Counted from the stretch's first letter, positions 1,379-37,196 are shown. The stretch: 57,322 bases of DNA from a virus (IMGVR_UViG_3300046028_008890:1-57322), one strand, 5' to 3'. A program made the numbers and translations. The notes: generated from the letters alone by a model not told the origin.

Positions 1379-2008
1379 ATGAAAGTAATAGAAAAACAAT
1401 GGAATTACGGAACATACCTCGCATACGACGAGATTGATGAGGAGTTTTTAGCAACCGAGAAGGGTATCCGTGTATTACCAGCGCCTTTTTTTTATGAAAA
1501 GAAATTATATTTTGAGCTATGGAAGCGTTATGAGCCGGGTGATAAAGCAACATTCCCCAACGGCGGATATGAAGTTGTTGACGTAAGTGGAGGAATCCGT
1601 TCATACGACCTGGATCAGATCATCATTCATCCCCAGGTACTCCAGCACAAGAAAATGTTGGATAAGATGGCTCGTCGTGCGGAAAAGGAAGCACGCAAAC
1701 GCGAACGCAAACGTGATAAGGTATATAAAGCGGTTACTAAAGGTGGACGACGTGGTAGACCAGCAATTGATCCAGCACTTAAAGCCGCTAGAGCAGCACT
1801 TAAGGTAGAAGCTGGAGTGCGTAGTGGAGGAAAGCGCGGACGACCTAAGAGTACCGAACCTAAAGTAGTACCTACACCGAAAACAACCGGTGGAAGAAGA
1901 GGTCGTCCGGCGCTCTCAGCAGAAGTGATTGACCAGCGAGCAGCAGATAAAGCAGCTGTACAGAAACGTTCGAGAGGTAAACGCGGACGACCTAAATCAA
2001 ACCGTTGA
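1379..2008 (+). CDS. basic DNA-binding protein with four AT-hook-like (G-R/K-RGRP) motifs
   Basis: GRRGRP, GKRGRP, GRRGRP, GKRGRP in the C-terminal half. Confidence 0.75.
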   Translation: MKVIEKQWNYGTYLAYDEIDEEFLATEKGIRVLPAPFFYEKKLYFELWKRYEPGDKATFPNGGYEVVDVSGGIRSYDLDQIIIHPQVLQHKKMLDKMARRAEKEARKRERKRDKVYKAVTKGGRRGRPAIDPALKAARAALKVEAGVRSGGKRGRPKSTEPKVVPTPKTTGGRRGRPALSAEVIDQRAADKAAVQKRSRGKRGRPKSNR

Positions 2009-2050
2009 TTGTCATAATTATTTTACGTATATTTATCGAAATTAAAAATT

Positions 2051-2272
2051 ATGATTACAATTACAGAATTAGAAAACGTAGATGCTAATTATTTTGAATT
2101 ATCTGATAACAATAAAACATTGTATGTTTTTAAAGTAGATGATCATTATGAGTTTTCTATTAATGAAGGTTATGATGATGATCAGGTATTAATTGATGAA
2201 TGTATTGAATTTTGTAAACAGAATAATTTAAATTATGAAGTTACAGACTCTAATATATTAATTAGACTATAG
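2051..2272 (+). CDS. acidic hypothetical early protein
   Basis: ORF with own promoter. Confidence 0.8.
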   Translation: MITITELENVDANYFELSDNNKTLYVFKVDDHYEFSINEGYDDDQVLIDECIEFCKQNNLNYEVTDSNILIRL

Positions 2273-2332
2273 TTGAAATAATATACGAGATCGGTCAAAA
2301 CCGGTCTCGTATATTTATCGAAATTAAAAATT

Positions 2333-2536
2333 ATGAATTTAAAAACTATTAATCAAAAACAATGTTTGTCATTTCAAAATTGTGAAGATGATACTCATAT
2401 TTTTGATATTGAAGCTAAAAATGAAGATAATAAAGTTGAATTTACTATGAATTTAGATGTTGATGGTTTTAACATGACATTAAATCAAGTAGAATTAAAA
2501 ACACTAATTGATTATCTTCAACAACAACTAGATTAA
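2333..2536 (+). CDS. hypothetical early protein
   Basis: ORF with own promoter/hairpin. Confidence 0.8.
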   Translation: MNLKTINQKQCLSFQNCEDDTHIFDIEAKNEDNKVEFTMNLDVDGFNMTLNQVELKTLIDYLQQQLD

Positions 2537-2585
2537 TTCTGTCGTAGTTTTTTTACGTACATTTATCGAAATAAAATTAAAAATT

Positions 2586-2762
2586 ATGACTGTAGAAGAA
2601 ATTATTGCCGCATTAAAAGAACTAGATGTTGATGGAGAAACGACTCAATACATTCTAGAGCGAATTGGAATGGACGAGCAAATGGCCGTTCAGTTGACCA
2701 CTAAATACCCTAGTGTTGTACAGGAACACATCAACGAATTAAAATCTGAAGGATTAATTTAG
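2586..2762 (+). CDS. hypothetical early protein (58 aa, not in ORF track)
   Basis: MTVEEIIAALKELDVDG...; promoter at 2541. Confidence 0.75.
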   Translation: MTVEEIIAALKELDVDGETTQYILERIGMDEQMAVQLTTKYPSVVQEHINELKSEGLI

Positions 2763-2809
2763 CCGGGCGAAGCTTAGTTATTATATTCATCCAAATAAAA
2801 ATTAAACGT

Positions 2810-3001
2810 ATGGCTAACATGTCTTATTGCAGATTCGAAAACACACTTAGAGACCTTAGAGATTGTTTTGCTAACATGGATAGTGATGATTTGAGTCAAT
2901 CAGAGTTTTATGCACGTAAACAAATGATTGAGTTATGTTGGGATATTTACCAAGAATATTGTAATATAATCGATGATGAATTTGAAGACGAATCAGAATA
3001 G
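2810..3001 (+). CDS. hypothetical phage protein (MANMSYCRFENT type)
   Basis: ORF with own promoter; N-terminal motif recalled from phage hypotheticals. Confidence 0.8.
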   Translation: MANMSYCRFENTLRDLRDCFANMDSDDLSQSEFYARKQMIELCWDIYQEYCNIIDDEFEDESE

Positions 3002-3071
3002 GTTTTGTCCGGTCCGAATTTTTTTAGTACATTCATATCACAAATATAAATAAATAATAAAAACAAAGGTT

Positions 3072-3413
3072 ATGGCAAAGAAAATCACAACTCCAGTAGT
3101 AATCGAATTTAACGACGAAATTGAAACTGTAGAAACAGTAAAAGCACCTAGCACAGTAGGTAAAGAAGCAGGTAAAGGTTCAAAAGGTCGTCCAACAGTA
3201 GCAGGTTCGGCTCGTCAGATGCGTCTAGCAGCTAGAGAAGCTCGTGTAGCAGCAGGTGGTAAAGTACAAAGAGGTCGTCCATCAGTTCAAACAAGCGCTC
3301 GCCAAGCCAAACTAGCAGCACAAGCAGCTAGGGTTGCAACAGGTGGGGTTATTAAGCGTGGTCGTCCAGCAACTAAAAAGGTAGATGAAGTAGCAGCCGA
3401 AGTGGCTGCTTAA
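3072..3413 (+). CDS. basic Ala-rich protein with three (K/R)GRP AT-hook-like repeats
   Basis: KGRP..SARQ, RGRP..SARQ, RGRP internal repeats. Confidence 0.75.
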   Translation: MAKKITTPVVIEFNDEIETVETVKAPSTVGKEAGKGSKGRPTVAGSARQMRLAAREARVAAGGKVQRGRPSVQTSARQAKLAAQAARVATGGVIKRGRPATKKVDEVAAEVAA

Positions 3414-3490
3414 TCAATAATGCCTAAGGTCCGCCATCCCGATGGGTGGGTGGCGGAACTTTTTTCGTATATTCATCCAAATTAAAACAT

Positions 3491-3667
3491 ATGAATTTAC
3501 TTATTAATTACATGATTGATTTTTTACACGGCGTTAGAGTAGAGGGTGAACCAGCTAATTACCCGCAGACTAGTCCTTCAAATGTGAGGGGAGAAGATGG
3601 TTTTTTTGAGTGGAGCCGTGAATATAGAGTGGGGTGTCAAGCAAAAAGTGGAGCTTGTTTTTATTAG
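3491..3667 (+). CDS. hypothetical early protein
   Basis: Start moved to 3491, after the promoter motif. Confidence 0.65.
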   Translation: MNLLINYMIDFLHGVRVEGEPANYPQTSPSNVRGEDGFFEWSREYRVGCQAKSGACFY

Positions 3668-3710
3668 GCGAGATTTTTTACATACATTTATCGAAATAAA
3701 AATTAAATAT

Positions 3711-4109
3711 ATGGCTACAAGATCTTACATCGGAGTTAGAAACACAGATGCTTCAGTTGATTATATTTACTGCCACTTTGATGGCTACCCAGAGCACAAC
3801 GGACAGATCCTAACGGAGCATTATAATAATCCTAACCGAGTAAATGAATTAATGAAGCTGGGTGATTTGAGTGTGTTGGGAAAATTTATTGGTGAAAAAC
3901 AGGATTTCGATAAGCGAATTAAAGATAATTGTTTAGCATACGGTAGAGATAGGGGTGAATCGAATGTGGGAGTGAAAAATACCAGCTATGATAAATTGAT
4001 TGTCGATCAAAGTGTTGATTATGTTTATATTTTCGACGGTGATTATTGGGAGTGCCACAGCACATATACTCCAGAATTAATTAATTTATATGATAAAGCA
4101 GACGCTTAA
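3711..4109 (+). CDS. conserved phage hypothetical protein (MATRS..YCHxDGYP family)
   Basis: Start moved to 3711 after the promoter; YCHFDGYPEHNG motif. Confidence 0.8.
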   Translation: MATRSYIGVRNTDASVDYIYCHFDGYPEHNGQILTEHYNNPNRVNELMKLGDLSVLGKFIGEKQDFDKRIKDNCLAYGRDRGESNVGVKNTSYDKLIVDQSVDYVYIFDGDYWECHSTYTPELINLYDKADA

Positions 4110-4142
4110 AGATAGTTCATACTTTTAATTTTTAATGATTAC

Positions 4143-4170
4143 GCCCTGGGTTTCTACCCGGGGCTTTTTT
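4143..4170 (+). terminator. rho-independent terminator
   Basis: GCCCTGGG-tttcta-CCCGGGGC followed by T6. Confidence 0.85.
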
Positions 4171-4214
4171 ACATGGGCAAAATTAAACACGTATATTTAT
4201 CAAAATTAAAACAT

Positions 4215-4478
4215 ATGACAATAAAAGATTTGATTGAACAATTAAGTAAATTTAATCCAGAAACAGAAGTATTAGGTATGTGTACTGACCCTACAGATTA
4301 CACCTACAAAGTACCTATTAAGTCAATTATACTAGATGACCCTTATGATTCAAATGGTTATTCAGGTGTAGATGGTTCTGAAGTAGATTGGGTAGAGTGT
4401 TATAATGAAGATGAAGAAACAGGTGAAGAAACTTATATTGGTCCTAAGGTTGTATTATTAAATTTAGGTGATGTATAA
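4215..4478 (+). CDS. hypothetical early protein, paralog of 5698-5889
   Basis: MTIKDLIEQLSKFNPETEVLG; start after the promoter. Confidence 0.8.
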   Translation: MTIKDLIEQLSKFNPETEVLGMCTDPTDYTYKVPIKSIILDDPYDSNGYSGVDGSEVDWVECYNEDEETGEETYIGPKVVLLNLGDV

Positions 4479-4534
4479 AAACATCACTTTTTTTTGTCAC
4501 AATTATTTATATATATTTAATCAAATTAAAAATT

Positions 4535-4705
4535 ATGAGTGATAAATTAACATTAGAACAAAACGAACGTTTAAATGAATTAGAATCTGTGTTAAAAGTT
4601 TTTTTATATGATGTAGATTATTTGAGAGAATTTGGTGAAGATGAAGAAACAGATGTTAATTCTTTGTTTGATGATGTGTTTGATAGAATTAGAGAATTAA
4701 ATTGA
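4535..4705 (+). CDS. acidic hypothetical protein (56 aa, not in ORF track)
   Basis: MSDKLTLEQNERLNELES...; promoter at 4496. Confidence 0.75.
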   Translation: MSDKLTLEQNERLNELESVLKVFLYDVDYLREFGEDEETDVNSLFDDVFDRIRELN

Positions 4706-4751
4706 TTTTTTTGTCACAACTATTTACGTACATTTATCAAAATTAAAACAT

Positions 4752-4940
4752 ATGAAATATTTAGTAATTGAATTTTTTGGAAATGATAATTATTTTACTA
4801 CAAATGGTTGTACAATTGATGAATTAGTAGAGGAAATGTATGGCGGTAGAGAAGAATTTAATTTAGAAGAAGCTAAGAAATCATTTTTTGAAAATTATGA
4901 TGTATTTGAGATTAGAGGTGAGTTGGTAAAGATAAATTAG
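4752..4940 (+). CDS. acidic hypothetical early protein
   Basis: ORF with own promoter. Confidence 0.8.
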   Translation: MKYLVIEFFGNDNYFTTNGCTIDELVEEMYGGREEFNLEEAKKSFFENYDVFEIRGELVKIN

Positions 4941-4957
4941 TTTTTTTATATCAGGTG

Positions 4958-4986
4958 AATGTGGGTGGTCAGAAATGATCACCCAT
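4958..4986 (+). repeat. left copy of 29-bp hairpin direct repeat; terminator-like
   Basis: aatgTGGGTGGTCA-gaaa-TGATCACCCAt followed by a T run; 27/29 identical to 6954-6982. Confidence 0.9.
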
Positions 4987-5072
4987 TTTTTTAATATTAT
5001 CTTAACATAATTAATTTAAAATATATTTGTTTTGTTATAATTAATTTATTATATTTATATAAATTAATAATT

Positions 5073-5315
5073 ATGATTAAAATTTATTGTATTGATGATG
5101 ATGGTGATTTAGTTAGAGATTATAAGGTTAGTAGTGATTTGTTGATGGAGAGATTTGTATTAAGTGAGGGTGATGTAAGTGAGATAATGAGTGAGATAGG
5201 AATTTATAGTGTAGAGGATGATGTGGAGATGTTTAGAGTGGATAGTGTGGAGGATATTGATTTGGATATGTGGTTAAATAGGGTAGGTATTGATTTTGAG
5301 TTGAGGAGGAGGTGA
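5073..5315 (+). CDS. acidic hypothetical protein, C-less gene
   Basis: Intact ORF with promoter; no Ala/Pro/Thr/His/Gln. Confidence 0.8.
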   Translation: MIKIYCIDDDGDLVRDYKVSSDLLMERFVLSEGDVSEIMSEIGIYSVEDDVEMFRVDSVEDIDLDMWLNRVGIDFELRRR

Positions 5316-5382
5316 TGGATAAAAAAATAAATTAGTTTAATTGTGATTAATGATGTATATTTGTATAAATAAATTATTAATT

Positions 5383-5637
5383 ATGAGTATAGAATTAAAA
5401 TTGAATGAATTAGATGAAATGTTTAGTAAGTGTGGAAATGGAGTGTTTATTATGTGTATGAGTAATAGAGGGGATAAAAAGGATAGATTTAGGATTTGTA
5501 GAGAGAGTTGGAAATTAGGTAGTAGAGTGAATTGGGTGAAGTGTAAAAAAATATTGAGTTTAGAAGGTATTGAATTTGTGGAGGGTGAAAGTGGATGGGG
5601 AATGAGAATGAGTAGATGTATTGATTTTAATTATTAA
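5383..5637 (+). CDS. hypothetical protein, C-less gene
   Basis: Start moved to 5383 after the promoter; no A/P/T/H/Q. Confidence 0.8.
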   Translation: MSIELKLNELDEMFSKCGNGVFIMCMSNRGDKKDRFRICRESWKLGSRVNWVKCKKILSLEGIEFVEGESGWGMRMSRCIDFNY

Positions 5638-5697
5638 AGTAAATTAGTTTAATTAAAATTAATTATGTATATTTAGTTATAATTAAAAAATTAAAGT

Positions 5698-5889
5698 ATG
5701 AAAGTAAAAGAATTAATTAGTTTATTAAGTAAATTTAATGGTGAATTAGATGTATTAGGTGAATTTGATAGTGATGGTGATGAATTTATGGTTAAAATAG
5801 ATGTTAATAAAGTATATAAAGGTAATAATATTGATGATAGTAATTGGGATGATGATGGTAAAGAATATTGTATAATATTATTAAAATAA
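5698..5889 (+). CDS. hypothetical protein, C-less paralog of 4215-4478
   Basis: MKVKELISLLSKFNGELDVLG versus MTIKDLIEQLSKFNPETEVLG. Confidence 0.8.
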   Translation: MKVKELISLLSKFNGELDVLGEFDSDGDEFMVKIDVNKVYKGNNIDDSNWDDDGKEYCIILLK

Positions 5890-5944
5890 ATTTGTATTGT
5901 TAGAATTAATTGTGTATATTTAATTATAATTAAAAATTAAAAAT

Positions 5945-6244
5945 ATGAAATTAAATTTAAAAGATTTAAAAGAATGGATGTGGATTGAAGTATGTGAAGG
6001 TGATGATAAGATAAAGATTAGTAATAAGTATAAAAAAGTATGTGATGGAATTGGAGATGAAGAAGTAAGTGGTGGAAATTATATTTGGTATTTTTATTTG
6101 ATATTAGATAGATTAGTTGAAAAAGAAATGATAGAGTTTGAAGGTGGTGATTTTGATTGGATATATGAATTTTTAAAGGAATATAATGAGGAGAATAATT
6201 TTAATAAGTATATGGATGAATATAATTTATTAGTTATTAAATAA
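5945..6244 (+). CDS. acidic hypothetical protein, C-less gene
   Basis: Intact 99-aa ORF with promoter. Confidence 0.8.
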   Translation: MKLNLKDLKEWMWIEVCEGDDKIKISNKYKKVCDGIGDEEVSGGNYIWYFYLILDRLVEKEMIEFEGGDFDWIYEFLKEYNEENNFNKYMDEYNLLVIK

Positions 6245-6297
6245 ATTAGTTTAGTTAGAATTAATATTGTATATTTAATTAATTAAAAAATATAATT

Positions 6298-6582
6298 ATG
6301 ATTATTGAAAATTATTTAGAAAGTATGATTTATGATTTTAATTGTGGAAATGATAATGAGTATGATGAAGGAGAATTAGTAGAGTTTAGATATGAAGAAA
6401 TTGAAAAAGGAGATTTAGATAATTATGATGAAGAAGATGTAAATATGTTTTATGAAATGAGAGATTATATTAATGAAGTGAAAGAAATAAAATATAAAAA
6501 TGATGATGATGGAATAGAATATATTTTTAGTGTAGAAGAAAATGATATAGTTTGTAGATTTAAAGAAGTAATTAGGTATTAA
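6298..6582 (+). CDS. highly acidic hypothetical protein, C-less gene
   Basis: Intact 94-aa D/E-rich ORF with promoter. Confidence 0.8.
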   Translation: MIIENYLESMIYDFNCGNDNEYDEGELVEFRYEEIEKGDLDNYDEEDVNMFYEMRDYINEVKEIKYKNDDDGIEYIFSVEENDIVCRFKEVIRY

Positions 6583-6640
6583 ATAAATTAGTTTAGTTAG
6601 AATTAATAGTGTATATTTATTTAAATTAAAAATTATTATT

Positions 6641-6739
6641 ATGAATTTAATTAATTATGTTATTTTATTTACTATTTTATTTAATGTTATTTTTATTAGT
6701 ATTAGTTATAAAGTAGAATTAGATAGAAGAAAAAATTAA
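6641..6739 (+). CDS. 32-aa membrane peptide containing the island's only C (Thr11, ACT)
   Basis: MNLINYVILFTILFNVIFISISYKVELDRRKN; promoter at 6596. Confidence 0.6.
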   Translation: MNLINYVILFTILFNVIFISISYKVELDRRKN

Positions 6740-6792
6740 ATTTGTTTTGTTAGAATTAATATTGTATATTTAATTAATTAAAAAATATAATT

Positions 6793-6951
6793 ATGAATTT
6801 AAGTTTAAAGGAATTAAATGATTTGTATTATTGTGTAGGTAAGATGAGATGGTATAGTGAAGGAAGTAAAATGATAAGTAATGAAGAGTGTGAATTATTA
6901 TTAGATAGGTTAAGGGATGAAATAAATAAAGTAGTAAAAGAAGAAGAATAA
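6793..6951 (+). CDS. 52-aa hypothetical protein, C-less gene (not in ORF track)
   Basis: MNLSLKELNDLYYCVGKMRW...; promoter at 6749. Confidence 0.7.
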   Translation: MNLSLKELNDLYYCVGKMRWYSEGSKMISNEECELLLDRLRDEINKVVKEEE

Positions 6952-6953
6952 TA

Positions 6954-6982
6954 AATGTGGGTGGTCAGGAATGATCACCTAT
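6954..6982 (+). repeat. right copy of 29-bp hairpin direct repeat; overlaps the promoter of the next gene
   Basis: aatgtgggtggtcaggaatgatcacctat; GTCA-N12-TATCTTCA. Confidence 0.9.
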
Positions 6983-7011
6983 CTTCATCTAAACAATATA
7001 AATCAATTAAT

Positions 7012-7110
7012 ATGAGTATGTATTCAATTAACGTAGCTGCCTTAGTAACAATCTTAGTGAACACAGTAATACTAGTAGGTGTCTGGAGACATCAGCGCAG
7101 GCAAAAATAA
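7012..7110 (+). CDS. small membrane peptide
   Basis: 32-aa hydrophobic ORF after the promoter. Confidence 0.5.
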   Translation: MSMYSINVAALVTILVNTVILVGVWRHQRRQK

Positions 7111-7148
7111 GGTCATATATTCAGGACACAATTAAAAATTAAAACAAT

Positions 7149-7328
7149 ATGGAAAATTTAATTATTAGAACCAAGTATTTAAATGTATCATTAATTCCAG
7201 GTGTATTATTCGGAGCAATATATACCGACCAGGAAATAGGTATAGTAATAGGGCCACTAGCACTAACGATTAAACTGTATGCCTTCAACCGTAAACGTAA
7301 AGCGACACCCAATACAAATGAATTATAG
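7149..7328 (+). CDS. 59-aa hypothetical protein (not in ORF track)
   Basis: MENLIIRTKYLNVSLIPG...; promoter at 7100. Confidence 0.65.
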   Translation: MENLIIRTKYLNVSLIPGVLFGAIYTDQEIGIVIGPLALTIKLYAFNRKRKATPNTNEL

Positions 7329-7381
7329 GTGGACGGGGCAAAGCCCCGTTCATATATTCATCACATAATAAAATTAAACAT

Positions 7382-7564
7382 ATGAAACAATTTATCATTT
7401 CACTTCTAGTATCATTAATCGTATTGTATCTAGTAGTATCATTCATCAGCCTCACTCCCAATATAGCTGAATGGGGTTCGGGTGGACGTGGTGCTTATCT
7501 ATTCTTCGGAGCGTTATTTGGAGGTATAGCTTACGTTATCTATTACGAAACAAATAATAAATAG
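7382..7564 (+). CDS. small two-TM membrane protein
   Basis: Two hydrophobic helices; own promoter. Confidence 0.75.
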   Translation: MKQFIISLLVSLIVLYLVVSFISLTPNIAEWGSGGRGAYLFFGALFGGIAYVIYYETNNK

Positions 7565-8379: not shown

Positions 8380-8556
8380 ATGAATAAAAAATATATTGAG
8401 AGTACACTCATGCTAACTAAAGAGGCGTTTAACGATTATATATTAAAACAACAATCAACCCAAGCAACATCGTTTGGGTTAACGTTGGAACAGTATCAAC
8501 AAGCTATTATTGAGGGGTCTGTTGTTCAATCTTCTCCACAATCAGGCAGTTTGTAA
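8380..8556 (+). CDS. 58-aa hypothetical protein (not in ORF track)
   Basis: MNKKYIESTLMLTKEAF...; overlaps the convergent gene by 50 nt. Confidence 0.4.
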   Translation: MNKKYIESTLMLTKEAFNDYILKQQSTQATSFGLTLEQYQQAIIEGSVVQSSPQSGSL

Positions 8557-9025
8557 AATCCTTACCCAAATCCTCAATCACACGTTGCGCCGTCACCGAA
8601 TCGATGCTAAACATTTCCCTATTCTCAGCTACCCTATATTGACTCAGATGTTCATGTACTCGTTGCTCTAATATGTGTGAAGCATAACATTTAAGCGCCC
8701 AAACAGGTACCCATGGCGTTGGAACACCGGTCGCTCTATTAATATCGCGCGCACGTTTTACTGGTGTGTCGGTAGTCATCCCTATCTTCACCATACCAGG
8801 CATCGATCTATTTACTAACACATACACATATTCCATCGCACGCACACCACCCGATGAATCTATTACGGGTTCTTTTAAATAAATTATATCTTCCCATCCC
8901 TCTTTAAATCCAGGATCTGTTGTAGGCATTAATGCATAGTGAGTAGCCATATTACCCTCACCCGGCTTTAGCCGTATATAATATTGTATATCCTTAGCGG
9001 GAATGCGTATAAAATTTCCTTTCAT
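8507..9025 (-). CDS. T5orf172-like (GIY-YIG superfamily) protein
   Basis: YVYVLVN..MPGMVKIGMT..P..RA..I..ATGVPTP motif; early-type promoter on the minus strand at ~9030-9060. Confidence 0.85.
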   Translation of the reverse strand: MKGNFIRIPAKDIQYYIRLKPGEGNMATHYALMPTTDPGFKEGWEDIIYLKEPVIDSSGGVRAMEYVYVLVNRSMPGMVKIGMTTDTPVKRARDINRATGVPTPWVPVWALKCYASHILEQRVHEHLSQYRVAENREMFSIDSVTAQRVIEDLGKDFTNCLIVEKIEQQTPQ

Positions 9026-32847: not shown

Positions 32848-33819
32848 ATGATCAAATTACTTAACCTAGCTAAGCAAATACTAAAAGAAGGTGGTAACGT
32901 ATTCGGTACTACAGACTCAATTGAAAAAGATAATATTGAACCTACAATTGAAAAATTTGTAGAGCAATTATCCCAAGTATTCCCAGCTAAAGCATCAACA
33001 TTTACTGCATTTGAAAAACTAGGTTCAGCAGGTAAAAAAGCAGTATCCGGTGATATTGATTTATCATACGATATTAAAAATATATTTCCTGGTGGTAAAC
33101 CTGATTTTAAAGGTTGGGGTGTAGATGAAAATAAATACAACGAATTATTAGCTCAATTTACTAAGAAAGCTAGAACAGCATCTCCTGAAAAACTTCAATT
33201 ACGCGCTATGATTGTGTTAATTGGGGATAAAATTAATGATACTTTACCTGATGTTGAAGTAGATCTTAAAGCATCAGGTGCCGGATCATTATTCTGCGCC
33301 ATACCTCAGTATGGCCCTGATGGTGAACAAGTAGGTAAAGCCGTTCAGACTGACATTAATGTAGGTAATCCTGAATGGTTACGTTTTAGTTATTATTCCC
33401 AATCATATGAGGGAAATGTTAAAGGTTTGCATCGCACACAATTAATGTTGGCTTTATTCTCTAATAAAGGTAAATCATTTGGTCATACTACAGGTGTTGT
33501 TGATAAAGAAAGTGGTAAACAAGAAGCATCTAATCCTAAAGAAGCTATCGATTTATTAAATCAACTATATGGCTTTAATTTAACTCAAGATATTCTAGAT
33601 GATTATTTTAAGTTAGAAGATTTTATGAGGAAAAATATATCTAAAGAAGAATATAATTCTATTATAGATAGATACCTTAAAATACTTGATTCAACTCGAG
33701 CAGATATACCAAATAATTTACAAAAATATTGGATTGAAAATCAAGACAGATTAGGATTAAAAGGTAAATTTTTACCGGATAATTCAAATTTAATTCCTTA
33801 CCAAAAAGAAAAAGCCTAA
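32848..33819 (+). CDS. pol-beta-fold nucleotidyltransferase-like protein with MIKLL leader
   Basis: LGSAGKK..SGDIDL and a downstream QTD aspartate. Confidence 0.65.
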   Translation: MIKLLNLAKQILKEGGNVFGTTDSIEKDNIEPTIEKFVEQLSQVFPAKASTFTAFEKLGSAGKKAVSGDIDLSYDIKNIFPGGKPDFKGWGVDENKYNELLAQFTKKARTASPEKLQLRAMIVLIGDKINDTLPDVEVDLKASGAGSLFCAIPQYGPDGEQVGKAVQTDINVGNPEWLRFSYYSQSYEGNVKGLHRTQLMLALFSNKGKSFGHTTGVVDKESGKQEASNPKEAIDLLNQLYGFNLTQDILDDYFKLEDFMRKNISKEEYNSIIDRYLKILDSTRADIPNNLQKYWIENQDRLGLKGKFLPDNSNLIPYQKEKA

Positions 33820-36800
33820 TGTCTGGAAGTGCCGGTGGAAATAGAATTACTAGAGCTTCTGTTGCTAAAACAGTAGATAATTATATCAACAGGATATTAA
33901 AGAAATTTCCTGCTTTTAAAAGTGCTAAAGTATCAGGCTCATATAATACAAGCGCTAAAGAAGACTTTGGTGATATTGATTTAATTGTTAATTTAGAAGC
34001 AACTGATAAGAAAAATATTAAAGTAGAATTAGCTAAATTCCTATCTGCTCTACCAGATAATATTATTGTTCCTTTTAAAAGTGAAAAATATAAAGGTAAA
34101 AAATATCTAAACACAGGAGAAATAATCACTATACTATATCCTATAGAAGGACAACCAGGTGAATATGTTCAAATAGATAATATTGTTTCTATTAGTGATG
34201 ATGAAGCTGAATTTAAAAAAGAATTTTTAGATTATCCTGCTGAAATACAAGGATTATTATTAGGATTATCTAAAGTAATATGTTTGGAAGAAGATCCTAA
34301 AGCAATATTTGCTCGTATGGGTATTAAAAATATACCTGAACTTGAAGCGAATCAAGAATACGAATTCAATTTATCAAGCGCCGGATTAACACTACGTATC
34401 GTAACATTAGATAATTTTAAAGAAGTTGACCGCACTGAAGTATGGAAAACTAGTAATTGGTCCAATATCAAGCGGTTATTTACCAACTACAAAATAGATG
34501 GTAGCTTTGAAGATCTATTAAATGATATATCATCTAAGACAAAAAACATACGCTCAAAAAATCGCATTAAAGGTATTTTTAATTCGATGGTGTCTATTAA
34601 AAGTGGTGAAGTAGGTACACCTAAAGGCGATAATAAACAAAAATCATTAGATAAAGTGAATAACACATTAACTGAAACTAATTTAGGTAGGTATCTCGCC
34701 TCATTATTATTAGAGCAAGACCAACCAACAATAGCCCTATACCCAGGTAAATTCAAACCTCCACATAAAGGTCATTTTGAAGTAGTAAAGAAATTACTAC
34801 AGAATGCTGATCAAGTAGTTGTTTTAATTTCTCCTAAAACACATGAAGGTATTACTGCAGATGAAAGTGCTGCTATATGGGAATTATATAAGCAAAAATT
34901 AGATGGTAACGTTGAAGTAAGAATATCTGGTATTACTCCTGTTAAAGATGTATATGATTTTGTAGAAAATAATCCTGAGTTGACAGTATATGCTGCTTAT
35001 GGTAAAGGTGATGAGGGTAGATATGAGAGATTAAAGAAATACCCTAACGCTAAAATATTCAATGCTGGGTCAGTAACTGAAGATGGTGAAGATATAAGTG
35101 CTACTAATCTTAGAAAAGCAATACGTGATGAAAATGAAGGTGATATAAGAAAATATTTACCTGATGGAATTGAAGTAAATGACTTTTTAAGAGCCATAGG
35201 TAAAGAAACAAAAGAAGAACCACAACCTACACCTGCTCCTACCGCTCCTGTAGCCCCAGTAACTGAGAGGAAATATCAGAATCAAGATGATATGTTTGCT
35301 GATTATGTTTTATCTAGAGAGGCAGATGTTGAAGATACCGCTCAAGCATTCAATATACCAATCCCAGACGTAAGATATGCTTTTACAGTAGGTAATATGG
35401 TAGTAATGTCTGACGATATGTGGGATAAGTTAGAAAATAAAAATCATGAAGACGAAAATAGTGAAATTAGTGGTCCTCCTATGATTTTAAATTATGATCA
35501 AGATAGATATTATTTAACATATGGTAGTCGTATATTAGCTGATTATAAAAAATTAAATAAAATACCTAAAGTATTGTTGGGTGTTTTAGATTTAAAAGGT
35601 CCTAAACCTTGGCCTTTAAAAGAATACTCTCAAGGCACCATTAATGATCTAGTAACTAAATTTAAACAAGAAAAACCTAATTTAGGAGCAGATATTATCA
35701 AAGCATATATTAATCGTTTTGATCAAATTAAAAGCAAACCAGAAGTAGCTAATAAAGATATCACAACATATAGTTGGAAAGAATTAGAAACTATAGTTGA
35801 TGCTAATCAACCTAAGCGTATTAAGGCAGGTAAAATAAATGATGGTGAACCTAGCAAAGATGCTAATCTAGTCTATAACCAAAATGGATTAAGAATATAT
35901 GTTGGTAAAACTAAAAATGCCTGTATTAAATACGGTAATGGATACTCATTCTGCATCTCAGCTCGTGGAGAAGATAATTTATATCATGATTATAGAATAG
36001 AAAATAATGGAACACCATACTTTGTGTTTGATGATACAAAATCATCTGAACAAGATGAAAATGGAAAATTTATAGATCCAACTCATTTGTTAGTAGTATT
36101 TATACATGAATATCCTGAATTAGCCGATGACTATAATGATGATGAAGAAACCAATTACATCAGATATAATGAACCTAAAGTATATTACACTGTAACTACT
36201 GCAGACAATCAAGGAGAAGAAGAATATGGGGCTTTTGAAGATGACAGTAAAGTATTTGACCCAGTAGTGGGTGATTATCCTGAACTTAAAGGGCTAAAAG
36301 ATGTATTTAAGCCTATAAAAATAGATCCAAAAGAAAAAGCAGAATATAATCTTGAGAGAAAATATAATGATAAATTTGATAAAATTTATAATAGATATGG
36401 CAGTCAGTGGAGAGGTGATCATATTTATAATAATTATAATTTTTCCGGCATTATACAGGCTAATAAACTTATTGATGAATTTATAAATAATAAAATAGAA
36501 TCATATAATTTTATTGGAATTCTTAAAACTGAAGCGGTTAATGACTATCGTACTGAATCAATAAGACAATCTAGAATTGTAAAAACAGGAAGTCAAACAA
36601 GTTTAGAACATCAAAAGAAAAAATTTATAGAACAAATAATTATACCTCAGTATAATGGATCTGATAAGAACCATAATATTGAAGATGATTGGATTATAAA
36701 GTATCAAAAGGAAGATTTTTCAAATCCTATGTATAAAGATTATTTTAAAGATATTAAACAATTAGTTGACGAATATAGAAATGAATTATCTAAACTAAGA

Positions 36801-37196
36801 TTAATGAAAGAAGGTTTAGAACGTAAAACCAAATTAACTGAAAGCGAAACTGGTACTATAGGTGAATTTGTAAAGTATGCAATCAAAAACTTGGAAATAC
36901 AAAAACCTCCACGTAACTTAACCTTCTCATACGATAATGCGGCTGCTAAGGAGAAAAGGAGTTTTGGTTATTTTGATCCGAATGCTAATAAGATATGGGT
37001 GTACTGCGGGAATAGAAATATGGCTGATATATTAAGAACATTAGCACATGAATTAGTACATCGTAAGCAAGACGAAGACGGACGTATTAATTACGAAAGC
37101 GGAAAAACAGGAAGTGAAATAGAAAACGAAGCAAATGCTCAAGCAGGAGTCTTATTAAGAGATTTCGGCAAACAACACGAAGAAATATATCAATAA
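33819..37196 (+). CDS. multidomain protein: nucleotidyltransferase, HxGH cytidylyltransferase-like, domain shared with 39574, HExxH zincin
   Basis: GSY..DFGDIDL; PGKFKPPHKGH..ISATNLR; LAHELVH. Confidence 0.75.
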   Translation: MSGSAGGNRITRASVAKTVDNYINRILKKFPAFKSAKVSGSYNTSAKEDFGDIDLIVNLEATDKKNIKVELAKFLSALPDNIIVPFKSEKYKGKKYLNTGEIITILYPIEGQPGEYVQIDNIVSISDDEAEFKKEFLDYPAEIQGLLLGLSKVICLEEDPKAIFARMGIKNIPELEANQEYEFNLSSAGLTLRIVTLDNFKEVDRTEVWKTSNWSNIKRLFTNYKIDGSFEDLLNDISSKTKNIRSKNRIKGIFNSMVSIKSGEVGTPKGDNKQKSLDKVNNTLTETNLGRYLASLLLEQDQPTIALYPGKFKPPHKGHFEVVKKLLQNADQVVVLISPKTHEGITADESAAIWELYKQKLDGNVEVRISGITPVKDVYDFVENNPELTVYAAYGKGDEGRYERLKKYPNAKIFNAGSVTEDGEDISATNLRKAIRDENEGDIRKYLPDGIEVNDFLRAIGKETKEEPQPTPAPTAPVAPVTERKYQNQDDMFADYVLSREADVEDTAQAFNIPIPDVRYAFTVGNMVVMSDDMWDKLENKNHEDENSEISGPPMILNYDQDRYYLTYGSRILADYKKLNKIPKVLLGVLDLKGPKPWPLKEYSQGTINDLVTKFKQEKPNLGADIIKAYINRFDQIKSKPEVANKDITTYSWKELETIVDANQPKRIKAGKINDGEPSKDANLVYNQNGLRIYVGKTKNACIKYGNGYSFCISARGEDNLYHDYRIENNGTPYFVFDDTKSSEQDENGKFIDPTHLLVVFIHEYPELADDYNDDEETNYIRYNEPKVYYTVTTADNQGEEEYGAFEDDSKVFDPVVGDYPELKGLKDVFKPIKIDPKEKAEYNLERKYNDKFDKIYNRYGSQWRGDHIYNNYNFSGIIQANKLIDEFINNKIESYNFIGILKTEAVNDYRTESIRQSRIVKTGSQTSLEHQKKKFIEQIIIPQYNGSDKNHNIEDDWIIKYQKEDFSNPMYKDYFKDIKQLVDEYRNELSKLRLMKEGLERKTKLTESETGTIGEFVKYAIKNLEIQKPPRNLTFSYDNAAAKEKRSFGYFDPNANKIWVYCGNRNMADILRTLAHELVHRKQDEDGRINYESGKTGSEIENEANAQAGVLLRDFGKQHEEIYQ

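What the first reader, a model, noticed from the sequence alone, without database searches (positions are those of the whole stretch)
4215..5889. A paralog pair across the boundary suggests long-term adaptation to C-less coding
Seen: 4215 MTIKDLIEQLSKFNPETEVLG aligns with 5698 MKVKELISLLSKFNGELDVLG. Residues needing C are replaced (T to K, Q to L, P to G, T to L) in ways simple C-to-T conversion cannot produce: CCA would give Leu, CAA a stop. No island ORF is broken. Inference: the proteins have been under purifying selection while restricted to about 15 amino acids, which argues against a bisulfite-type artefact.
Basis: partly seen in the sequence, partly recalled or inferred. Interest (0 to 1): 0.7.

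Follow-up and report, generated by a model that had tools for sequence, protein, structure and literature searches.

The report
Cytosine-free early operon in a phage
A freshwater phage carries a two-kilobase block of seven small early genes whose coding strand has almost no cytosine, so its proteins use only 15 amino acids; relatives show this state is real, old and kept by selection, and I found no published report of it.

Summary
ORF 4215-4478 and ORF 5698-5889 are homologs (BLASTP E 1e-7; profile-profile 98% probability, E 1e-13; both match the same two PHROG families).

ORF 5698-5889 lies in a 1959-base stretch (5007-6965) with a single C on the + strand. The stretch holds seven intact ORFs and seven early-promoter boxes. 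It runs from just after an intrinsic terminator to the 5' arm of a conserved hairpin, so it looks like one transcription unit.

Cytosine-free islands recur at the same genomic place in related viral and metagenome contigs, and independent lake-water runs reproduce the sequence exactly. It is not an artefact.

Among 48 homolog clusters, 15 lack Ala, Pro, Thr, His and Gln, and they form one well-supported clade. A Pro codon present in 8 of 9 C-containing homologs became GGT or AGT, never the TTA that deamination would give. Since the split from the nearest relative, 1 of 69 island substitutions involves C, against 171 of 413 in the flanks.

Why the island exists is unresolved. I favour a transcript that can be made without CTP and carries no C, protecting early genes against a C-directed host attack. 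The main rival is a template strand free of the hypermodified 7-deazaguanine used by close relatives. Four literature searches found no report.

The parts
4143..4164 (+). Intrinsic-terminator-like hairpin plus T run, closing the preceding early unit
4191..4199 (+). Early promoter box GTATATTTA, C-containing version (followed by tC)
   Evidence: The same box class is at 2027, 2309, 2557, 3682, 4511 and 4728.
4215..4478 (+). Long-form paralog, 87 aa, 28 C, with Pro, Thr and Gln
   Evidence: Orthologs are in L006, L007, L008 and L010.
4535..4940 (+). Two C-poor early genes (4535-4705 with 7 C; 4752-4940 with 6 C), each behind its own promoter box
4958..4989 (+). Copy 1 of a 32-nt direct repeat: a hairpin with a GAAA loop followed by a T run. 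It terminates the upstream unit and marks the island's 5' border.
   Evidence: D10, 91% identical to copy 2; (-18.0 kcal/mol)
5007..6965 (+). Cytosine-free island: 1959 nt with one C (at 6672), A 40.9%, G 21.1%, T 37.9%. It has no terminator-like site inside.
5049..5057 (+). First island promoter box. Further boxes are at 5355-5363, 5667-5675, 5914-5922, 6269-6277, 6611-6619 and 6764-6772. They are C-less versions of the early box, and the upstream element reads TTGTTAGAA in place of TTGTCACAA.
   Evidence: (D1-D3)
5073..5315 (+). Island ORF, 80 aa, acidic, 0 C
   Evidence: Ortholog in L006: 84% aa identity, dN/dS 0.29.
5383..5637 (+). Island ORF, 84 aa, Cys-rich, 0 C
   Evidence: Relatives are in L006, L056 and L073.
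5698..5889 (+). Short-form paralog, 63 aa, 0 C
5945..6244 (+). Island ORF, 99 aa, 0 C
   Evidence: No family match.
6298..6582 (+). Island ORF, 94 aa, 0 C
6641..6739 (+). 32-aa hydrophobic ORF that holds the single C (codon ACT at 6671-6673). It lies in a 153-nt extra promoter unit, part of which found no match in L006.
6793..6951 (+). Last island ORF, 52 aa, 0 C. This family is in most islands examined.
6954..6985 (+). Copy 2 of the repeat: a conserved hairpin without a clear T run. The island ends at the first C of its stem (6966).
   Evidence: The same hairpin is at the island end in L006, L009 and L010; different stems sit at the same place in L056 and L067.

Best explanation
SHOWN
The island is one early transcription unit of a large, low-GC freshwater myovirus-type phage of the Flavobacterium-phage kind.
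- It has seven promoters of the same class that drives the neighbouring C-containing early genes.
- It has no internal terminator.
- It starts near the first promoter and ends at the first C of a terminal hairpin.
- Selection removes every C from the sense strand, in coding and intergenic DNA alike.
- Genes that sit in the unit have been rebuilt with 15 amino acids. The 5698 gene is such a rebuilt homolog of the ordinary 4215 gene.

INFERRED (about 0.4)
The constraint acts on RNA synthesis or on the RNA itself.
- C is the only base a translatable message can do without, because AUG and the stop codons need A, U and G.
- Such a unit can be transcribed in full without CTP.
- It cannot take up a cytidine chain terminator such as viperin-made ddhCTP.
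- It offers no site to a C-requiring ribonuclease.

I read the island as a hardened cassette for small, fast-changing early proteins, probably counter-defence proteins. They must be made even when the host, or the infection itself, makes C-containing transcription fail. Within this reading I put CTP-free transcription (chain terminator or CTP shortage) at about 0.25, ahead of ribonuclease evasion.
For: The island is real and recurs.

The constraint covers the whole unit:
- 0 C in 426 intergenic nt, against 113 C in 835 nt (13.5%) of neighbouring early intergenic DNA.
- 1 C in 1533 coding nt.

The borders match a transcript:
- A terminator lies upstream and a conserved hairpin downstream.
- In L056 the untranscribed upstream box of the first promoter keeps its C's (TTGTCAC). 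In L073 the C-free run starts at the promoter box itself.
- Internal promoters, which upstream polymerases read through, carry the C-less box.

Selection is ongoing: 1 of 69 island substitutions between the window and L006 involves C, against 171 of 413 in the flanks (Fisher p 1.9e-13).

Only part of the co-regulated early genes is C-free. Neighbours with the same promoter class have 9-20% C. A conditional cost explains this better than a constant one.

Gene content differs between islands, and the short-form gene sits inside some islands and outside others. Counter-defence regions typically behave this way; that comparison is my own knowledge.

Against: - No host, no RNA data and no defence system is linked to these phages. 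No RNA run was listed.
- The same preprint says some bacterial viperins make several ddh-nucleotides. C-freedom alone would not defeat those.
- Recalled, not checked here: ddhCTP was proposed to act mainly on single-subunit phage polymerases. These early genes have host-type promoters.
- A ribonuclease model does not need C-free intergenic DNA.
- No island protein has a known function.
- Relatives hold graded C-poor genes (1-5% C). In them, amino-acid-forced and avoidable C's are reduced alike (avoidable share 41% against 43% in normal genes). That fits a quantitative cost as well as an all-or-none one.
- The close relative carries a guanine-modification system, which gives the template-strand rival a specific reason to exist.
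Confidence: 0.4

Rival explanations
1. Modification-free template. The phage replaces guanine in its DNA with a 7-deazaguanine derivative. A C-free sense strand means a G-free template strand. Host polymerase would then read only ordinary bases when it transcribes these genes from the injected, fully modified DNA.
For: - The complete close relative G001 (terminase 85%, portal 82%, primase 90% aa identity to the window) encodes a DpdA homolog, QueC, QueD and FolE.
- Its DpdA resembles those of immuto and CP220 (34-36% identity).
- In immuto and CP220 all guanine is replaced (PMC10516641, passages read).
- Bulkier 7-substituents on 7-deazaguanine nearly abolished transcription by two bacterial polymerases in vitro (PMC4838386, passages read).
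- G is the only base a template strand can lack.
Against: - CP220 has no run of 158 nt or more free of C or G on either strand. Immuto has exactly one, in one gene.
- Neighbouring early genes with the same promoter class carry 9-20% C. Modified template G therefore cannot be a strong block.
- The in vitro study saw no shortened transcripts and placed the effect at initiation.
- DpdA was not found in the window itself, which is only 35% of a genome.
Confidence: 0.25
2. Escape from Rho and from RNA structure. Rho loads on C-rich, G-poor RNA (my own knowledge). A C-free, G-containing transcript offers it nothing and forms no G-C pairs. A long multi-gene message without Shine-Dalgarno sites would stay unterminated and open for ribosomes.
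For: - There is no terminator-like site in 1959 nt.
- Predicted folding is weaker: -13.7 kcal/mol per 150 nt in the island, against -21.1 in GC-matched windows.
- GC skew reaches 0.98.
- Graded C-poor genes in relatives fit a quantitative benefit.
Against: A few C's would not make a Rho loading site. This model does not predict an exact zero, nor the loss of a Pro present in nearly all C-containing relatives. Nothing here tests Rho.
Confidence: 0.12
3. Deaminase avoidance. A host cytosine deaminase acts on the displaced sense DNA strand of a very heavily transcribed region, or on RNA. Every C becomes a mutation target, so lineages settle on C-free sequence.
For: - The effect is strand-specific and confined to a unit with seven promoters.
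- T rises most among the bases that replace C: +5.6 points, against A +4.4 and G +1.9.
Against: - Replacements are not mainly C-to-T. They read T 12, A 15, G 12 in orthologs and T 55, A 37, G 40 in paralogs.
- Neighbouring units with the same promoters keep their C's.
Confidence: 0.08
4. R-loop origin. Extreme G-over-C skew on the sense strand favours stable RNA-DNA hybrids that prime replication.
For: GC skew is near 1 with many promoters. There is one island per complete genome.
Against: The ORFs are conserved as proteins. Skew does not need an exact zero. No origin feature was found.
Confidence: 0.04
5. Artefact of sequencing, assembly or base conversion.
For: None beyond the oddity itself.
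Against: Islands with different sequences occur in many assemblies. Four other runs recover the sequence exactly. The ORFs are intact and the codon changes are not C-to-T.
Confidence: 0.01

Closest known systems
C-less and G-less cassettes used to study transcription in vitro
   Same: A template whose transcript lacks one base, so that polymerase runs to the first occurrence of that base when the matching NTP is withheld. This use is seen in the search listing and abstracts, for example PMC8969151.
   Different: Those cassettes are man-made, short and non-coding. This one is natural, 2 kb long, encodes seven proteins and is kept by selection.
Motif avoidance by phages and toxin-resistant messages (restriction-site avoidance; ACA-free messages that survive MazF). 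Recalled, not searched here.
   Same: Sequence is purged of what an attacker recognises, while coding is kept.
   Different: Those cases remove a motif by synonymous change. Here a whole base is removed and five amino acids are given up.
7-deazaguanine DNA modification in phages (DpdA with the preQ0 pathway); Flavobacterium phage immuto, Campylobacter phage CP220
   Same: The close relative G001 has the signature genes. Immuto is the nearest cultured relative: terminase 52.6% identity, all G replaced.
   Different: The modification is genome-wide and not strand-specific. CP220 has no island, and immuto has only one nearly C-free gene (5 C in 357 nt).
Cytosine-deaminase footprints in viral genomes (APOBEC-type depletion). 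Recalled.
   Same: Strand-biased loss of C in a virus.
   Different: Those footprints are partial and motif-bound and leave excess T or A. Here the loss is total, local, and replaced by all three other bases.
phrog_5861 and phrog_22847 (phage protein families of unknown function)
   Same: Both paralogs match them.
   Different: The families carry no function and no note of a reduced alphabet.

Membership tests
One protein family for ORF 4215 and ORF 5698 | Significant sequence similarity, pairwise and between profiles | tested here: met
   BLASTP E 1e-7. hhalign 98.1% probability, E 1.1e-13. Both match phrog_5861 and phrog_22847.
Base-conversion (bisulfite or deamination) artefact | Every former C reads T; ORFs broken by CAA, CAG or CGA turning into stops; seen in one data set only | tested here: not met
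   CCN became GGT or AGT. Replacements read T 12, A 15, G 12. Seven ORFs are intact. Many assemblies and four other runs hold it.
Single transcription unit (operon) | Promoter at the start, no internal terminator, terminator or hairpin at the end | tested here: met
   Sequence-level only. No RNA data.
Phage with 7-deazaguanine DNA (DpdA signature) | DpdA plus preQ0-pathway genes in the genome | tested here: inconclusive
   Met in close relative G001. Not found in the window, which is 35% of a genome.
Phage with 7-deazaguanine DNA (DpdA signature) | Modified base present in virion DNA | not testable with these tools
   Needs mass spectrometry. Shown only for immuto and CP220.
Counter-defence (anti-defence) early region | Small early genes with variable content between close relatives | tested here: met
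Counter-defence (anti-defence) early region | A product that inhibits a named defence system | not tested
   No match in Pfam or PHROGs beyond unknown families. Foldseek found nothing at E 0.001 or better.
Viperin (ddhCTP) evasion | Host carries a ddhCTP-making viperin and the island gives an advantage against it | not testable with these tools
   The host is unknown. Only general passages were read.

The most novel reading that the evidence does not exclude
Some phages keep an emergency operon written without cytosine. It can be transcribed when CTP is missing or poisoned, and it yields 15-amino-acid-alphabet proteins that disarm the host. This would be a new principle of counter-defence, working at the level of nucleotide composition. 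It would also be a natural experiment showing that folded, selected proteins can be built and maintained without Ala, Pro, Thr, His and Gln.
Probability: 0.3. Interest if true: 0.95.

Novelty: categorically new. Interest (0 to 1): 0.85.

Why it matters
A multi-gene unit that lacks one of the four bases on its sense strand, kept so by selection across a clade, is not a feature I could find described. They cover open-access papers and bioRxiv only.

If the cause lies on the RNA side, it points to a C-directed antiviral pressure in freshwater Bacteroidota-type hosts and to a new way for phages to resist it. If the cause lies on the template side, it is the first sign that 7-deazaguanine DNA carries a transcriptional cost that phages pay to avoid.

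Either way, the island proteins are natural reduced-alphabet proteins with ordinary homologs for comparison. That is useful for protein evolution and design. The nearly C-free gene of the cultured phage immuto offers a starting point at the bench.

Tried and rejected
- blastn of 4100-7400 against cultured phages: no match.
- Pfam: 0 families for 17 of 18 early proteins.
- PHROGs: only unknown-function families for the island.
- AlphaFold2 of the short form with 43 sequences: mean pLDDT 71.2, one helix and two strands. Foldseek against the PDB: 0 matches at E 0.001 or better. No function can be read from this.
- Rfam at gathering score: 0 matches. ARAGORN: 0 tRNA genes.
- No RNA holder was listed for the island, so expression could not be examined.
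- Scan of viral contigs with the island-type promoter pattern: only 3 contigs, all already known.
- I looked for a hierarchy in which synonymous C's are lost before amino-acid-forced C's. There is none: the avoidable share is 41% in 20 C-poor genes and 43% in 10 normal genes.
- I tested whether guanine modification predicts islands. CP220 has none and immuto has one 158-nt run. The link is not general.
- A collection-wide scan for base-free runs was not possible, because collection scans need 14 specified bases. I did not try a pattern of ambiguity letters there.
- The dN/dS values use plain Nei-Gojobori site counts, which allow changes to C. I did not recompute them with C forbidden. By my inference dS is therefore understated and the ratios overstated.

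Full report
WHAT IS THERE

The window is a viral contig of 57,322 bases, estimated 35% complete. Matches to terminase, portal, baseplate wedge, endolysin and primase families mark it as a large tailed phage. Its nearest cultured relative by terminase is Flavobacterium phage vB_FspM_immuto, at 52.6% amino-acid identity.

Bases 1 to about 8000 hold many small ORFs on the + strand.
- Thirteen carry one promoter-like box, GTA[T/C]ATTTA, 15-25 nt before the ATG. Seven of these lie at 2027-4728 and six at 5049-6764.
- A fourteenth box reads GTATATTTG at 5355-5363.
- Terminator-like hairpins with T runs lie at 3430, 4143, 4466 and 4961.

THE ISLAND

From 5007 to 6965 the + strand has one C, at 6672.
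- The two C-free runs are 1665 and 293 nt. The next longest in the window is 76 nt.
- Outside the island C is 13.9%. log10 P of at most one C in 1959 nt is -125.
- No comparable run lacks G, A or T.
- Intergenic DNA is as clean as coding DNA: 0 C in 426 nt, against 113 in 835 nt of neighbouring early intergenic DNA.
- Seven ORFs are intact. Their 504 residues hold one Thr and no Ala, Pro, His or Gln. These five make up 18.8% of the other early proteins.
- The lost C is made up by T (+5.6 points), A (+4.4) and G (+1.9).

BORDERS

A 32-nt direct repeat flanks the island at 4958-4989 and 6954-6985, 91% identical.
- Each copy folds into an 11-pair hairpin.
- The first copy has a T run and scores as a terminator.
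- The island ends at the first C of the second copy's stem.
- The same hairpin closes the island in L006, L009 and L010. Different stems at the same place close it in L056 and L067.
- In L056 the C-free run begins after the C-containing upstream box of the first promoter. In L073 it begins at the promoter box itself.
- Internal promoters carry a C-less upstream element, TTGTTAGAA, where outside promoters have TTGTCACAA.

The island therefore coincides with what should be transcribed from the first promoter to the end hairpin. This is a reading of sequence. I have no RNA data.

THE PARALOG PAIR

ORF 4215-4478 (87 aa, 28 C) and ORF 5698-5889 (63 aa, 0 C) are homologous.
- BLASTP: E 1e-7, 15/39 identities.
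- Both match the same two PHROG families.
- Profile against profile: 98.1% probability, E 1.1e-13, over 43 columns.

The pair is an old duplication at 38% identity, so orthologs are the better evidence.

ORTHOLOGS

- Long-form orthologs with 21-37 C are in 4 other loci.
- Short-form orthologs are fully C-free in L009, L010 and L032, have 3 C in L012-L014, and 7 C in L011. More distant homologs have 29 C.
- At alignment column 15, Pro (CCN) is present in 8 of the 9 C-containing members shown. The four C-free members have GGT (two) or AGT (two). C-to-T conversion would give TTA.
- In the large protein collection, 48 clusters match the short form. Of these, 15 lack A, P, T, H and Q, and the other 33 hold 1-9 such residues.
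- In a tree of 45 of these (three rows dropped: P0036, P0039 and P0040, which are truncated or N-terminally extended), the 15 lie in one clade of 16 with support 97/92. The sixteenth, P0016, has regained one Thr and one Gln. With 64 columns the tree is weakly resolved elsewhere.

SELECTION

dN/dS by plain Nei-Gojobori:

| Gene or family | Pairs compared | dN/dS |
|---|---|---|
| Short form (5698), C-free orthologs | six pairs | 0.33-0.46 |
| 5073 | window vs L006 | 0.29 |
| 5383 | window vs L006 | 0.77 |
| 6793 family | all pairs | 0.24-0.92 |
| 6298 family | four divergent pairs | 0.86-1.17 |
| 6298 family | one close pair | 0.37 |
| Long form (4215) | all pairs | 0.20-0.49 |

Purifying selection on the island proteins is present but moderate and uneven.

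Selection against C is much clearer. Between the window and its closest relative L006, 69 substitutions separate the aligned island blocks and 1 involves C. In the flanks 171 of 413 do (Fisher p 1.9e-13). Under a gains-only null of 26%, P of at most 1 in 69 is 2.4e-8.

NOT AN ARTEFACT, AND HOW WIDE

- C-free or C-poor stretches occur in 7 of 11 viral loci found with the two paralogs.
- They occur in L032 but not in L034 or L035.
- Runs of 200 nt or more occur in 8 of 28 metagenome loci.
- The complete relative G001 (173,246 bases, terminal repeats) has exactly one island, at about 73.6-74.3 kb. It has no G-free island, and all 178 ORFs of 90 aa or more are on one strand.
- Fifteen sequencing runs labelled lake water hold at least half of the island's sampled words.
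- Contigs from four runs not flagged as possible sources cover the island in pieces with 0 differences. Other contigs there carry a Pro-bearing ortholog of the short form.
- Gene content differs between islands. The short-form gene lies inside the island in the window, L009, L010, L032 and L056. It lies outside, with 7-16 C, in L011/L062, L067 and L073.
- Relatives also show graded C-poor genes with 1-5% C. In these, amino-acid-forced and avoidable C's are reduced alike.

CLUES TO THE CAUSE

(a) Guanine modification.
- G001 is a close relative: terminase 85%, portal 82%, primase 90% identity.
- It encodes a DpdA homolog, QueC, QueD, FolE, a dCTP-deaminase-like protein, a cytidylyltransferase and a sugar-nucleotide cluster.
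- Its DpdA is 34-36% identical to those of immuto and CP220.
- In immuto and CP220 all guanine is replaced by a 7-deazaguanine derivative (PMC10516641, passages read).
- A C-free sense strand is a G-free template strand. Bulky 7-substituents on 7-deazaguanine nearly abolished transcription by two bacterial polymerases in vitro (PMC4838386, passages read).

(b) Against that link.
- CP220 has no run of 158 nt free of C or G. Immuto has one, inside gp143, which has 5 C in 357 nt.
- The in vitro study saw no shortened transcripts and placed the effect at initiation.
- Neighbouring early genes behind the same promoter class have 9-20% C.

(c) C is the only base an ORF can lack, since AUG and the stop codons need the other three. 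This follows from the genetic code.

(d) The island RNA is predicted to be weakly folded: -13.7 against -21.1 kcal/mol per 150 nt.

VERDICT ON MECHANISM

| Reading | Odds |
|---|---|
| Transcript that needs no CTP and holds no C, hardened against a C-directed attack (chain-terminating ddhCTP, CTP shortage or a C-requiring RNase) | 0.4 |
| Modification-free template strand | 0.25 |
| Rho evasion or unstructured RNA | 0.12 |
| Deaminase avoidance | 0.08 |
| R-loop origin | 0.04 |
| Artefact | 0.01 |
| Something else | remainder |

- a zero count across coding and intergenic DNA;
- borders that fit a transcript;
- why only some of the co-regulated early genes are affected.

It rests on no direct evidence of such an attack in these hosts.

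NOVELTY

Four full-text searches found C-less cassettes only as laboratory tools and no natural phage case. Subscription journals are largely outside that library. Supplements of bioRxiv preprints were not open.

Noticed in passing
window 1379-2008 and 3072-3413: Two early proteins rich in Lys, Arg and Ala, with repeated K/RGRP motifs that look like AT-hooks. They probably bind DNA. Homologs sit beside the island in L006, L010, L011, L067 and L073.
   Followed up: no
window 8507-9025 (- strand): The only clear minus-strand gene in the early region. It encodes a T5orf172/MUG113-domain protein (E 3e-15). Immuto has one at the matching place (gp123).
   Followed up: partly
L018 18330-18686 (NC_055915.1 68330-68686, gp143): The cultured phage immuto has one nearly C-free early gene (5 C in 357 nt, with a 158-nt C-free run). 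It offers a bench handle on the phenomenon.
   Followed up: partly
window 6986-7000; L006, L009, L056, L067 just after the end hairpin: A conserved motif, CCTAYCTTCAY, follows the island's end hairpin even where the hairpin stem differs. In some loci it pairs with an upstream GAAG. Its role is unknown.
   Followed up: partly
window 6955-7110: A 51-aa ORF begins inside the end hairpin and encodes a small hydrophobic protein conserved in L006. Either the hairpin or the ORF, or both, may be under selection.
   Followed up: no
window 6581-6791: The window has an extra 153-nt promoter unit with a 32-aa hydrophobic ORF, part of which found no match in L006. The island's only C (6672) lies in it.
   Followed up: partly
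window 4990-6781 and other joints: Contigs from other runs join across parts of the island at the repeated promoter units. This fits gene gain and loss by recombination between these near-identical 50-nt units. Depths are low and some joints may come from other phages.
   Followed up: no
window 33819-37196; G001 about 26-52 kb: A large sugar-nucleotide biosynthesis cluster with cytidylyltransferase domains, in the window, G001 and immuto. Infection may draw on CTP, which bears on the CTP-shortage idea.
   Followed up: no
protein P0016: One member inside the clade that lacks A, P, T, H and Q has regained Thr and Gln at its N-terminus. This may be a gene that left an island.
   Followed up: no
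L013 5506-7619: A more AT-rich relative (27.8% GC) has a 2-kb run of genes with only 2-5 C each rather than none. It is an intermediate or relaxed state of the island.
   Followed up: partly
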